DNA of 63,471 bases, the filler included, from Octopus bimaculoides (taxonomy: Eukaryota): the NCBI RefSeq assembly GCF_001194135.2. It is 6 parts of 5 records of this genome, joined end to end, with 100 filler letters (N's around TTAATTAATTAA, not from the genome) between each part and the next. Parts side by side here need not be neighbours in the genome. Positions count along the whole stretch, not along the records: positions 1 to 9,083 come from NC_068990.1; positions 9,184 to 20,111 come from NC_068983.1; positions 20,212 to 42,702 come from NC_068990.1; positions 42,803 to 57,993 come from NC_068996.1; positions 58,094 to 60,851 come from NC_069006.1; positions 60,952 to 63,471 come from NW_026399968.1. One strand, 5' to 3'. The notes below the pieces were generated by a model, which searched no databases, was not told where the DNA came from, and saw only the letters and a list, made by a program, of their open reading frames with translations. Below, piece after piece: positions 243-62,162 of the stretch; position 1 is the stretch's first letter; the number at the start of each line of letters is the position of its first letter. Both the position numbers and the translations under genes were made by a program.

Positions 243-324
243 TGCCCTGACGAGGGGGTCATCACCAGTTTGCACTCTATTGTGTTTGGAATACAATGGT
301 GTACCCCCGAAATGGCCATAGGTG
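243..324 (+). ncRNA. Minimal type I hammerhead ribozyme motif, intact core
   Basis: CTGACGA (247-253), stem II GGGGG/CCCCC, GAAA (309-312), palindromic stem III ATGGCCAT, AUA triplet, short stem I TGCC/GGTG. Confidence 0.75.
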
Positions 325-1148
325 TTGTACGTGGTTTTGGGGAAATTGATTTTACCGATTGATACCTGCTATGTGCTGTATTTGTATTTTGACCCATGTG
401 TTGTGAACTTTTGGACATGTTGAGCGGAATTAAATTTTACATGTTTTACTTGATGATACCTGTTGGATGCCTGTTATTTACTCTTGTATATGCCTAATTG
501 GTGCGGACTTGCTTATTGGTGTCTACTGGTTTTGAGTTGTAACATGTGCCCGAGGGAGATGGAGAACTTTGTGTTTTTCTCTAAACGGTGTTAAATCATT
601 TCTGTCCTTGATTTTTAACCGATGGACTACTTTATGGTACCTCATTTCTTTATTTTATTTTACTTTATCTTTTATATCGACCTATATTATATTATATACT
701 TGAAATTTTTAATCGTATTAGTTTTAACTTCTATGAAATGATATATATGTGTATTGTGTTATACCTTTAACTCAATTTTTTTCCTTTGTATGTTATCGGT
801 TGGTATAATATATTCATGTATAAAATTTTATACTATATGTTCTATTTCTTGCTTCTTTTATATATTTCTTATTCTTTTATTTATTATTTCTTCTTACGTT
901 ATATCTTCNNNNNNNNNNCTTCTTATTCCTTATGTTTGACGGATTATATTGTATATCTTATATATGTTCATTGACGGGGTGTGATATGTCGTCAACCCAG
1001 CGTTTTTATTCTATAACTAATATTTTACTCTTGTCTTAATTTTTCTGAGCACTTCTCCTTGCAGCCCTGTATAAAATCTATTGGTTTCATAAGAAACCAT
1101 TAATATTACACACACCCACACACCCACACACACACACACGCACACACA

Positions 1149-1182
<34 letters not shown>

Positions 1183-1184
1183 TA

Positions 1185-1215
<31 letters not shown>

Positions 1216-2989
1216 GTGTGTTTGTATTTTTCCCTCGTTAACAATTAACACGGGAAAAATAGATAAATAGTTACCAGNNNNNNNNNNTTCCGATTAGATT
1301 TAATTTGCATCCCATAAGGAATAATTAACCAAATGGTTTTACTATTAGTTACCTTATTTTAACCAAATAGTTTTACTATTAGATACCTTATTTTTAGTGT
1401 AACTATCTTTGAAAGACATAGATTTAACTTTAGAACGAAAATAGGGGTTTAAATAAGGGTTATCTCCCTTCCTCTGTTTGCTGTTGGCGTATAAATTAAA
1501 ATTGATATCGTTTACATCTTCACAACTATGCATATATAAAAAATGTATTTATCTATAGATATATATTTCCTACACGCTTTGCTTCTTATAGTATTCTATA
1601 AAATGCACATCACTCTCATTCTCAACTCCATACCCTTACTACTAATGTCCATTCGTCGAAAAGTATCTCTGTGTGTTCATATTTTAAACCACAATGAATA
1701 CCACCAGTCCTTTCTACTCAACCTTTGCTCCCTCAGGAAGCATTCATAAAAAATCTAGAACCCCTCTATGTTAGATTTCCTCTGTTATGGATAAAGGGAC
1801 AGACAATATTCTAAGGACAAAATAACCTATATTTTACGAAAGCGTTAATTCCCAGTCACTGCACATATATGAAACACACACACACATTCACACGCACAAG
1901 AAATAAAATATAAAATCTGCATTTCTCGACATCTACTATGTTTGAAGAATAAAGTGTTAAAAACACGTAAACACACAACTACTACTAAATCTCACATTTC
2001 CAAACGATTATTTTCACATTTAAAACCAGCAAGCAAAACAATGCGTTAACTGGCAAATATTCACTTATTAACACACTACATTTACGTGATGTTAGACACG
2101 CTCATTCCTCTTAATTTCTCGTCGACTGATGTTGCAAATGCTTGCTTACATATTCTCTTGTAGGCTGTCTTGGCCATCTGACATAAATGAAATTACCAAC
2201 TCTCTGAAAAAGACAAATATATCTCTTACAGCCTACAGCTGTTGACTCTGTAAAAATTTCAAGTAAAACATACACTGCACAATGGTGATCATGCATAGAC
2301 TGTTGTTGTTGATCCACTCACAAACATCCAAAACCGTATCTAAAATAAATACATTCAACAGACTGGAAAAATTCAATCACCATCAATAATTGGCTTCTAA
2401 GTGCACTGCTTTATCTTTCTTTGCTTCTTGTGTGATTTATATATAGGATGACCTCTATTCCTTCTCTCTTTACTTCTGCGTACGCTTTTGACTGAAACAA
2501 AATTGATGCCTGAACGAGTTCGGAGATCGATAGTAGAAGCCGATCTACTTTGAGACGTAATTTGAGGCGGAGTTAATGAAAAAAATCCTTCTGTTTTCCT
2601 TTTGTCTCACTGTTTTCACTGTTAGATCCCAAACTAAACGCGTTTCCCTATACTTTATTTCCAATGCTAATTTATCAGTCTAGATTATTGCCCTTTCAGC
2701 AAGATTTTCATGTGATCAGAGACCTAGGAAAGATAAACAAATATAAAACAAATTTGTTTGATTTGTATATCACGTCGCCCTCTTTAATGCCTCCACATCG
2801 GCCGTAAATAACTTTATCGGGGTTTGCCGACTTGTAACAATTCTAGTGCAAGGCTTTCGATAGAGATTTATAGTAACCCTACGGCACATGTCAAACATTA
2901 ATAGTAAAATCACTGAATATTCCTTTCATCATTAGCCTAACTAGCTGTTACCGGGAGGCATATCACACAACCTATTCCCCTAAGAAATA

Positions 2990-3400
2990 ATAACATCTTT
3001 ATGTCTCACCCTTACTGGTCTGCTATTAATTTTGTACTGTGGGGTGACCATAGTTGGGAGCAGTAGTCCAGACGGTTGAGTACGAATGTCTTCCAGAGGA
3101 CCCTCATGGTTTCCTTCTCTGTGGCTTTGAAGGTTCTCAGGATCCATCCATCCACCCATCCATCCATCCATCCAGCCAGCCAGCCAGCCAGCCAGCCGTC
3201 TACACTTTGTTACCATCTTGGTAATGTGCACTTGGAACGAGGTATCAACACTCAAGTCGAGACCCAGGTCACGCATTGATTTAGGTTCTGGGATTGTAAT
3301 CCCTCCTGGGCCAGTGTACCCTGTAAGTTTTTTGTCCAGTTTTGGATGCTCGTAGCGCAAGGTTTGGAATTTCACTGCATTAGACTTCATATTATTCTTC
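2990..3400 (-). mobile_element. CR1/Jockey-group LINE fragment, RT C-terminal region
   Basis: Translates to [21 protein letters not shown]...WILRTFK...[20 protein letters not shown]. Confidence 0.75.
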
Positions 3401-4174
3401 TCAGCCCATCTGTAAATTGCATCTAACTTATTACTTAATAAGTATTATTTTACATTCGTTCTATATTTATATGTGTCGAAGATAAGTTTTCTTTTTTTCG
3501 CTGCCTACCTTCACAATAGAAACCATAGAAGACCACTTTTGTTTTATTCCCCGCATACCTCCAGGATAGAAACCGTAACATAGATTTCACTGCAACATTT
3601 TTCTTTTGTTTCACGTATTCCACATCAGAATTGATCAGGTCAGCTGTCATTTTCCTATCTCTCTTCAACATATTTTTGAAAATACACATTTTCCCTAAAC
3701 ATAGGAACAAACAAATTCGGTGGGCACTCTTCTGTAGGTATGCCATATGTTTAATATAACGACACATGTGCGTCGTTGTGTGTATCTGTGTGTGTGTGTA
3801 TGTGTGTGTGTGTGTGTGTATGTGTGTGTGTGTGTATGTGTGTGTGTGTATGTGTATGTGTAAGTGTAATTATCTCTATTACTTTATATTGCTATAAAAA
3901 AAGAGGAGCTGACGAGGGTGATCCAAGTATAAAATTATTTCACTTGACAATCGAAAGAGTTTACTCTGTGCATCCAAGTCACTACGAATGTTTCTCTTTG
4001 AGGCTGCTTCATGAAATAAGAGGACCGACTTCCTTCTCCTTCCTAAGAACGACTGATGGTCAAAATATTCTTACAAATAGAGAAACCTACTTAGGCTTAA
4101 ATTTGTTACAAGATGACAATCAGGGGGATACAACAATGAAGGTGACTCGAATCCATAAAACATCTGCACTTTAG

Positions 4175-60797: not shown

Positions 60798-60851
<54 letters not shown>

Positions 60852-61023
60852 NNNNNNNNNNNNNNNNNNNNNNNNNNNNNNNNNNNNNNNNNNNNTTAAT
60901 TAATTAANNNNNNNNNNNNNNNNNNNNNNNNNNNNNNNNNNNNNNNNNNNNCTCAAGAAAATTCAGCAAATGCCAGAACGTAAGCGAGCAAGACAAATGA
61001 ACAGATGCAAAATATAAAGATTA

Positions 61024-61095
61024 ATCACAAACCCGGTTTCGTTGTTACCACTGACGTAATTACTTACGTAAATGTCAGCAATTCATCAGTGTGAT
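61024..61095 (-). ncRNA. Minimal type I hammerhead ribozyme motif, near-canonical
   Basis: Minus strand ATCACA-CTGATGA-long stem II-GAAA-CCGGG-TT-TGTGAT; perfect 6-bp stem I, GUU triplet, A-C mismatch at 10.1-11.1. Confidence 0.68.
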
Positions 61096-61269
61096 CGTGA
61101 TTAGCAATATAATTTTCAGAACTATACACGAGACGTCCGCATGAGATTGAACATGTATATAGTTTTACCAATTACATTTGGGGTTATATTTCAAAAGTCT
61201 TCGTTTTGGCGTGCCAAATACCGGAAATAATTCTGCAGAAAATAATTCTTTGCAGTGAATTTTGCCAGT

Positions 61270-61945
61270 TAGAGAACATGGTTATTTAAATTTTAATAAT
61301 AAGGGTGAAAAATTGAATATTAATTTGATTAATATCAATTTAAAATCAGTGGCCTAGCATATTGAAAAATCTAAAGATTCAGAAAAATTATATTTACATA
61401 CATATAGGAGGGATGACCACTAAGTGGACATCCAATTAAGACAAATTTCTTGAAAAGCTTCTCCTCTAAAATCTAAGGCCTTCACAAACTGTTTTACCAA
61501 TCCGATTTTGTTGGAATCTGCTAGAGGCTGTTTGAGAACATTTAACATTCCTGCCTGCAGTTCCATTCGTGGGGGCCAATGTACTCTCTTGTAATGATCA
61601 TCGGAAACATGAATACTTTGTGTATCCCCCTTGCAAGCCAAGCAAGAAGGCAAACATCTTGAAATCACCACAAACATCCCACTTGAACTCAGCATAATTT
61701 ATTTTGTCGAGAAATTCTTTGACATTATCATAATTTTCTTTCTTCTGTATGGAGTGTGCAGGAGGCAAAGAAAGATATTTATTTCCATTGTGGAGCAACA
61801 CTGCTTTGAGACTTCGTGTTGAGCTATCTTTGAACAGTCACCATTCTACAGAATCATGCTTGAGTCCAATAGCAGTAAACAAACCAATCACATCTTTACA
61901 ATAACACAGATCATTAATATTTTCATAGTAGCCTTGGGGCTTACA
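61270..61945 (-). mobile_element. Chapaev3-like (CMC) transposase fragment and 3' end
   Basis: LCYCKDV.GLF...EW.LF.DSS.RSLKAVLLHNGNKY.SLP.AHS..KENY...VCGDFKM.AFLLGLQGGYTKY.CF...HWPPR...GLVKQFVKALD; family name from recalled motifs. Confidence 0.78.
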
Positions 61946-62114
61946 AAGGGAATGACCAATCTTAAAGACTATTGGATCTTACTCACAAGGTATTGGAATC
62001 TTATATATATACCATTTTGTCTAAACAATGGATTTACAAATACATTATCCCTACATTTACTCTCTATTTCCTATCTTATCTAAACTAACTATTACTTAAC
62101 CATCCTCTCACACC

Positions 62115-62162
62115 GTCTCTGATGACGGGATATAATAAATATCCTGGAAACAGCTGTAAAAC
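62115..62162 (+). ncRNA. Minimal type I hammerhead ribozyme motif, intact core
   Basis: GTCT-CTGATGA-CGGGATA(TAATAAA)TATCCTG-GAAA-CAGCTG-TA-AAAC; 7-bp stem II, palindromic stem III, GUA triplet. Confidence 0.72.

What the first reader, a model, noticed from the sequence alone, without database searches (positions are those of the whole stretch)
243..62162. Several unrelated dispersed hammerhead ribozyme families in one 63-kb window
Five motifs with recognisable cores (243+, 14674-, 26491-, 61024-, 62115+) and one decayed copy (9275-) share the minimal type I layout. Each has a short self-complementary stem III, but the palindromes differ: ATGGCCAT, ACAGCTGT, ACTGATCAGT, ACC-G-GGT and ACGT. 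Established: Penelope-like elements and non-LTR retrozymes carry minimal type I hammerheads that cleave as dimers via such palindromes. Inference: at least four carrier families, none attached to a visible ORF, so possibly undescribed cephalopod retrozyme-like or non-autonomous Penelope families. The differing palindromes could restrict dimerisation to like copies.
Basis: partly seen in the sequence, partly recalled or inferred. Interest (0 to 1): 0.72.

Follow-up and report, generated by a model that had tools for sequence, protein, structure and literature searches.

The report
Octopus Penelope-element hammerhead ribozyme remnants
The six motifs are real hammerhead-shaped sequences from five different jumping-repeat families in what is likely an octopus genome; two families are tail ends of a known group of Penelope-type retrotransposons, a third likely is, and two are short gene-less units likely copied by the same enzymes, an arrangement already described in animals, with self-cutting predicted but untested.

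Summary
The motifs are real: a descriptor tuned on them finds 5 hits in the window against 0.13 in shuffles. Each belongs to a dispersed repeat family, five in all. The clustering has no physical meaning, because the window is a pack of six separate stretches, and random genome samples suggest roughly 30,000 such motifs genome-wide.

Longer copies of families A (243) and B (14717, 62119) lie behind the C-terminal GIY-YIG endonuclease of Hydra-clade Penelope-like elements (PLEs). E (9304) follows a Neptune-like endonuclease remnant in 1 of 30 loci. C (26537; ~345 nt) and D (61089; ~530 nt) are ORF-less head-to-tail units with inversions and (TA)n flanks, i.e. retrozyme-like.

Corrections: C's stem III is a 5-bp hairpin, not a palindrome. 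The B master core is CCGAUGA (U4C); the window's 'canonical' 62119 copy is likely CpG decay with a broken stem I. RNA-seq shows no cut-site ends.

Hydra-clade hammerheads, an octopus family included, are published, and this scan noted similar families on other DNA. Verdict: new members of known kinds. The remaining point of interest is a young, abundant family with a likely weakened core.

The parts
229..1106 (+). Family A copy: 5'-truncated 3' end of a Hydra-clade PLE, followed by a (CA)n tract
   Evidence: Colinear with most of 29 other loci; endonuclease ORF upstream in 9 of 30 loci
243..324 (+). Family A type I hammerhead: CTGACGA 247-253, long stem II, GAAA 309-312, palindrome ATGGCCAT 312-319, predicted cut after A320
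   Evidence: the stem III segment is the family majority, 15 of 30
9219..9367 (-). Family E copy: old, likely Neptune-like PLE 3' end; decayed hammerhead 9308-9274 (core TTGGAGA; family majority CTGAAGA, 7 of 30)
   Evidence: GIY-YIG remnant upstream significant in 1 of 30 loci, L142, E 4.3e-8
14616..14759 (-). Family B copy 2; hammerhead 14721-14674 with the majority core CCGATGA and palindrome ACAGCTGT
26315..26627 (-). Family C copy: near-complete ~345-nt ORF-less unit ending in (TA)n; hammerhead 26550-26484 with 5-bp hairpin stem III, predicted cut after A26497
60952..61434 (-). Family D copy, cut by the contig end: ~530-nt ORF-less unit with a partial head-to-tail copy upstream (about 61295-61434); hammerhead 61096-61023 with ACCGGGT and U17
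61941..62369 (+). Family B copy 1: 3' end of a Hydra-clade PLE followed by a microsatellite; hammerhead 62115-62162, core CTGATGA likely by CpG decay, stem I broken at 62160
49010..49691 (-).
32231..32409 (+).
   Evidence: nhmmer with the family D profile, E 7.5e-5; sequence shown

Best explanation
The motifs are hammerhead-shaped sequences in five dispersed repeat families: A and B are 3' ends of Hydra-clade Penelope-like retrotransposons, E is likely an old Neptune-like PLE 3' end, and C and D are short ORF-less head-to-tail units likely copied in trans by PLE enzymes; self-cleavage is predicted, not tested. Mechanism: PLE reverse transcriptase and GIY-YIG endonuclease would prime cDNA at nicked (TA)n or microsatellite DNA from the RNA's 3' end, usually stop early and often switch strand (inferred from published PLE biology and the copy anatomy). 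This leaves thousands of short 3' pieces that keep the hammerhead but lose the ORF (shown: 5' truncation, adjacent inverted copies, microsatellite flanks). In the master elements the hammerhead would process tandem transcripts, as a double hammerhead for A, B, D and E and possibly as a monomer for C (predicted). Most genomic copies, the window's included, are decayed and likely inert passengers.
For: A: endonuclease ORF end directly upstream in 9 of 30 loci; GIY-YIG PF01541 E 6e-4, below the curated cut-off; RT-thumb + EN + hammerhead in L160/L171; a sister subfamily with RT (DKT, YRDD) and EN in L172/L173 and an A-type hammerhead in L167/L170; 17 longer relatives at E<=1e-10, several with RWK/DKT and the same C-terminal EN. 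B: Hydra-type EN ORF pieces in 7 of 20 loci, with the B hammerhead 1.05-1.24 kb after the stop in L291, L292, L304; blastp to the full-length relatives E to 7e-28. C and D: fixed head-to-tail junction in 12 of 30 (period 335-358 nt) and 8 of 30 loci (516-534 nt); direct two-hammerhead dimers in L379 (341 nt apart) and L118. Inverted family pieces within 900 nt upstream: A 4, B 7, C 6, D 16, E 8 of 30. C structure: 86% of cells paired, two-sided changes in stems I and II, covariation score above 500 of 500 shuffles. Published Hydra hammerheads have the same style: an extra nucleotide beside stem II, 3-4 bp near-palindromic stem III, ACAG/CTGT, frequent U17 (PMC8557442 File S2).
Against: No RT found for B and no full-length copy of any family assembled; Hydra membership rests on motifs and blastp, with no tree. 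The E link is significant in 1 of 30 loci (second best E 0.06). No helper identified for C or D, and no DNA similarity between family units beyond short low-complexity matches. Three raw RNA-seq runs (about 6% of each read) show no pile-up of ends at the B cut site, and 69-73% of laid reads run on into unlike sequence; C's hammerhead has depth 0-3. C 5' ends do not cluster at the cut site: 3 within 2 nt, 2.0 expected. The covariation control does not correct for relatedness.
Confidence: 0.85

Rival explanations
1. All five are independent non-autonomous retrozymes that replicate through abundant circular RNAs, with palindromes selected to keep dimerisation family-specific.
For: C and D are ORF-less tandem units. 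Folding favours homodimers (-5.1 to -10.6 kcal/mol) over heterodimers (0 to -4.8).
Against: A and B are ORF-linked. C has a hairpin stem III. Reads over C's hammerhead are nearly absent in three RNA-seq runs, although these libraries may lose circles. Homodimer preference also follows from stem I, so it is expected without selection on palindromes.
Confidence: 0.08
2. C and D are pseudo-LTR fragments of autonomous PLEs whose ORF-bearing copies were missed, not separate non-autonomous units.
For: Searches return only the best 40 candidates. B looked ORF-less until two upstream walks. The assembly has many gaps at (TA)n.
Against: The sequence upstream of the hammerhead is the unit's own 3' end, joined at a fixed point. 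No shared ORF upstream in 60 C loci (about 51 distinct) or 44 D loci examined, and no C or D match in 70 GIY-YIG loci.
Confidence: 0.2
3. The motifs are chance matches in AT-rich, microsatellite-laden DNA.
For: No Rfam hammerhead above threshold in the window; the descriptor was tuned afterwards.
Against: 5 hits against 0.13 in shuffles; hundreds to thousands of homologous candidates; compensatory changes; position behind PLE ORFs.
Confidence: 0.01

Closest known systems
Hydra-clade PLEs and their hammerheads, incl. Hydra-1_Obim (Craig et al. 2021, PMC8557442, section 11, Files S1-S2)
   Same: C-terminal GIY-YIG with CxCX5C linker, CxxC and CxH, no CCHH; DKT; (TA)n targets; 3' hammerhead with short near-palindromic stem III, extra nucleotides beside stem II and often U17.
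   Different: A and B hammerheads differ in sequence from that of Hydra-1_Obim. B has a 1.0-1.2 kb spacer between ORF and hammerhead and a U4C core, which appears in none of the File S2 rows. A runs about 790 nt past the hammerhead.
[quoted passage not shown]
   Same: Thousands of mostly solitary, heterogeneous motifs in consensus families; pairs on opposite strands 100-700 nt apart; palindromic stem III; only a few copies inside full PLEs.
   Different: The parts read report no cephalopod. The core variant described there is U3-A8, not C4.
Metazoan non-LTR retrozymes (Cervera and de la Pena 2020, PMC7229834; Li, Clavereau and Pollet 2026, bioRxiv 10.64898/2026.07.22.740005)
   Same: Short ORF-less head-to-tail units with a type I hammerhead (mussel 350-390 bp; C about 345 nt); proposed to be non-autonomous PLE derivatives.
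   Different: C and D are mostly monomers or partial tandems with PLE-type inversions; abundant circular RNA is not shown; C has a 5-bp stem III.
Natural U4C hammerhead of a viroid (cited in Perreault et al. 2011, PMC3088659)
   Same: U4C core; said to lower activity considerably in vitro yet to suffice in vivo.
   Different: Here it is the majority state of a young, high-copy genomic retrotransposon family.

Membership tests
Type I hammerhead ribozyme | CUGANGA and GAAA boxes plus an NUH site | tested here: met
   Family majority for A, C and E. B has C4 in 24 of 30; most D copies have U17, a subfamily C17 in 11 of 14.
Type I hammerhead ribozyme | Three stems supported by covariation | tested here: met
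   Counted for C; seen by eye for D stem II; not counted for A, B, E.
Type I hammerhead ribozyme | Rfam model score above the gathering threshold | tested here: not met
   RF00163 gives 11 matches over the cut-off elsewhere in the genome, of 74 scored.
Type I hammerhead ribozyme | Self-cleavage | not testable with these tools
   RNA-seq read ends were uninformative.
Hydra-clade PLE (A, B) | C-terminal GIY-YIG with CxCX5C linker, CxxC and CxH, no CCHH | tested here: met
   Translations against the criteria read.
Hydra-clade PLE (A) | RT with DKT and RWK motifs | tested here: inconclusive
   DKT and YRDD present, RWK only partly (RLIWR), in the sister subfamily L172/L173; relatives carry both.
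Hydra-clade PLE (B) | RT domain | tested here: inconclusive
   No B copy reached the RT core in 6 extended loci.
Hydra-clade PLE (A, B) | Placement in the Hydra clade of an RT tree | not tested
EN+ PLE insertions (all five) | 5' truncation, partial tandems, adjacent inverted copy, (TA)n or microsatellite targets | tested here: met
Neptune-type PLE (E) | GIY-YIG endonuclease upstream of the hammerhead | tested here: inconclusive
   1 of 30 loci significant, against a profile built from this genome's ORFs that I grouped by eye as Neptune-like.
Non-LTR retrozyme (C, D) | Short ORF-less head-to-tail unit with a type I hammerhead | tested here: met
Non-LTR retrozyme (C, D) | Two consecutive units with complete hammerheads | tested here: met
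   One locus each, both with substitutions: L379 for C, L118 for D.
Non-LTR retrozyme (C, D) | Abundant circular RNA | tested here: inconclusive
   Low depth, unstranded cDNA libraries of unknown selection.

The most novel reading that the evidence does not exclude
Family B is a young Hydra-clade PLE (93.6% identity among the best copies, 2,808 first-look candidates) that amplified with a weakened U4C hammerhead, and the main D subfamily traded a GUC site and perfect palindrome for GUU and an imperfect one. These would be natural experiments showing that cleavage is dispensable or deliberately damped in PLE transposition, an open question in the PLE literature. C would be a monomer-cleaving octopus retrozyme riding on Hydra-type enzymes.
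Probability: 0.3. Interest if true: 0.5.

Novelty: new member of a known kind. Interest (0 to 1): 0.27.

Why it matters
It adds two octopus Hydra-clade families and two retrozyme-like units to known classes. It suggests that this genome holds on the order of 30,000 hammerhead-like motifs (95% interval about 9,500-68,000, from 5 hits in 335 kb). The function of PLE hammerheads is stated to be unclear (PMC8557442); B (U4C) against A, and the two D subfamilies, give cheap paired tests.

Tried and rejected
1. Rfam scan of the window: no hammerhead listed; microsatellite-driven miRNA matches dominate.

2. Special clustering: the window has 5 descriptor hits in 59.7 kb against 5 in 334.8 kb of random genome (p about 0.01). 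The descriptor was tuned on the window, the window was picked for these motifs and the pack is artificial, so this is not taken as biology. Family profiles gave 1 B and 1 D locus in the random set, a biased comparison.

3. Cut-site signature in DNA: two C copies seemed to start at the cut site; the full set gave 3 within 2 nt against 2.0 expected. Rejected.

4. RNA: no RNA holder listed on record. Same-species raw runs were laid on B/D and on a C copy; no ends at cut sites. The 'goes back' joints match genomic tandem repeats, so they show no circles.

5. B first looked like a 1-kb non-autonomous unit; a further walk found its endonuclease.

6. A search for an ORF-linked D subfamily found none in 14 loci.

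7. The 3909+ candidate had no homolog among the fetched loci and was left unresolved.

8. Luense et al. 2017 is not held; it is known here only through its citation in PMC6765202.
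Full report
Observation. The window is six joined stretches. Searches of the own genome (2.34 Gb) place four of them at C10:18.34 Mb (motif 243), C3:68.76 Mb (9275 and 14674), C10:14.90 Mb (26491) and contig C105111 (61024 and 62115), so 'one window' has no physical meaning. The organism is inferred to be an octopus from genome size, microsatellite load, an octopus-named homolog and earlier scan notes; no call names it. 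All six motifs are in the sequence. A strict descriptor found 1 against 0 in 20 shuffles. A scored descriptor tuned on the motifs found 5 against a mean of 0.13 in 30 shuffles, missing 62119 because its stem I is broken. Rfam gave nothing above threshold in the window, and RF00163 gave 11 matches elsewhere among 74 scored. The tuned descriptor found 5 hits at 4 loci in 40 random 10-kb stretches (334.8 kb without N), about 29,000 genome-wide with a wide interval.

Families. Each motif retrieved 40-45 matches from 40 scored candidates, and 30 loci per family were studied. Mean identity among the 29 best hits: B 93.6%, D 91.5%, A 86.6%, C 75.9%, E 63.8%. 14717 and 62119 are both family B. Copies are short, 5'-truncated and often end in microsatellites. 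An inverted family piece lies just upstream in 4 (A), 7 (B), 6 (C), 16 (D) and 8 (E) of 30 loci. This is the published anatomy of endonuclease-bearing PLE insertions (PMC8557442, passages).

Family A. Nine of 30 loci carry the end of an ORF directly upstream. It reads CxCX5C, a GIY-YIG (PF01541 E 6e-4, under the cut-off), CxxC and CxH, the criteria of the Hydra clade. L160/L171 holds RT thumb, endonuclease and hammerhead in order. A sister subfamily has RT with DKT and YRDD in L172/L173 and an A-type hammerhead in L167/L170. The RT piece matched no Pfam family but found 17 longer proteins at E<=1e-10; three were read and have Hydra-type motifs.

Family B. Two upstream walks crossed three ~54-nt repeats, a pyrimidine tract ending in a splice-acceptor-like AG, and a microsatellite, then reached a Hydra-type endonuclease in 7 of 20 loci. 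The hammerhead follows 1.05-1.24 kb after the stop in 3 of them. No RT was reached. Position 4 of the core is C in 24 of 30 copies and T in 6, a rate like the neighbouring CpG (T in 4 of 30), so the master is U4C and the window's 62119 copy is likely CpG decay. RNA reads agree: C in 266 of 299, 127 of 163 and 157 of 172. U4C is known from a viroid and lowers activity (PMC3088659, passage); the search for 'hammerhead' plus 'U4C' returned only that paper.

Family C. This is a unit of about 345 nt. The sequence upstream of the hammerhead repeats its own 3' part in 12 of 30 loci, and L379 is a direct dimer with two CUGAUGA cores. Stem III is five pairs closing a variable tetraloop (94% of cells paired; A15.1-U16.1 in 30 of 30). 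Stems I and II show two-sided changes in 4 and 7 copies; the covariation score beat all 500 shuffles, a control that ignores relatedness. A homodimer is also predicted.

Family D. This is a unit of about 530 nt, with the junction seen in 8 of 30 loci and one decayed dimer. The commonest form has ACCGGGT and U17 (13 of 30); a subfamily has ACCGGT with C17 in 11 of 14. Stem II alternates A-U and G-C at its first pair.

Family E. It is old. A GIY-YIG remnant upstream is significant in 1 of 30 loci and fits a Neptune-like profile best.

Mechanism. Shown: family structure, ORF linkage for A and B, tandem junctions for C and D, inversions, microsatellite flanks. Inferred from established PLE biology: target-primed reverse transcription from the 3' end with early stops leaves hammerhead-bearing stumps, and C and D borrow PLE enzymes; which helper is not shown. 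Predicted: double-hammerhead folds for A, B and C homodimers, and homodimers favoured over heterodimers for all five.

Against activity. Three raw RNA runs (about 6% read) gave unstranded B reads that mostly run into unrelated flanks, with no ends at the cut site; C's hammerhead had depth 0-3. Library type may hide circles. C 5' ends do not pile up at the cut site.

Comparison. PMC4209133 (parts 1-2 of 4 read) describes massive solitary PLE hammerheads, opposite-strand pairs and palindromic stem III. PMC8557442 (passages, section 11, supplement searches and part 2) lists Hydra-1_Obim with a different hammerhead and 20-odd Hydra hammerheads of the same style as A, B and D. PMC7229834 (passages and section 14) gives mussel retrozymes of 350-390 bp. 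bioRxiv 10.64898/2026.07.22.740005 (parts 1-2 of 5 and passages; supplements not seen) argues that animal retrozymes are non-autonomous PLE derivatives, with no cephalopod in its main text. PMC6765202 was seen as passages. Searches for these octopus families listed 4 of 5 and 2 of 3 papers, of which only PMC8557442 was read; Dfam and Repbase could not be searched, so the families may be catalogued there. Earlier notes of this scan report similar octopus families on other DNA; none matched B by sequence or the U4C words.

Verdict. These are real, ordinary PLE-associated hammerheads: new members of known kinds, interest 0.27.

Noticed in passing
window 49010-49691 (-): Hydra-clade endonuclease remnant related to family B's carrier (about 71% DNA identity), with a further match to a relative on the opposite strand at 49687-49878.
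   Followed up: partly
window 32231-32409 (+): Decayed, distant D-like element with its own hammerhead core at 32271 and a different stem III.
   Followed up: partly
window 3909-3970 (+): CTGACGA...GAAA with a partly paired long stem II; possibly another decayed hammerhead, no homolog among the fetched loci.
   Followed up: partly
window 22707-22826 (-): 41-residue match (61%) to a PLE ORF piece from locus L256.
   Followed up: no
L181-L205, about 295 nt upstream of the family B core: Branch-point-like sequence, pyrimidine tract and AG followed by an initiator-like motif. About 10 of 23 informative copies begin within 7 nt of this AG (the query biases this), suggesting a transcription start or splice acceptor in the pseudo-LTR.
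   Followed up: partly
L062, about 420 nt upstream of its family C copy: Another Hydra-type endonuclease end followed by a long-stem-II hammerhead whose single copy also reads CCGATGA.
   Followed up: no
L206-L275: Several further PLE families with 3' hammerheads, including U3-A8 cores (TTGATAA, TTGAAAA) behind Neptune-like and Poseidon-like endonucleases.
   Followed up: no
L076:1698-1789: RNA reads from diverged relatives share only this 3' segment of the family C unit, which may be a conserved signal among retrozyme-like families.
   Followed up: no
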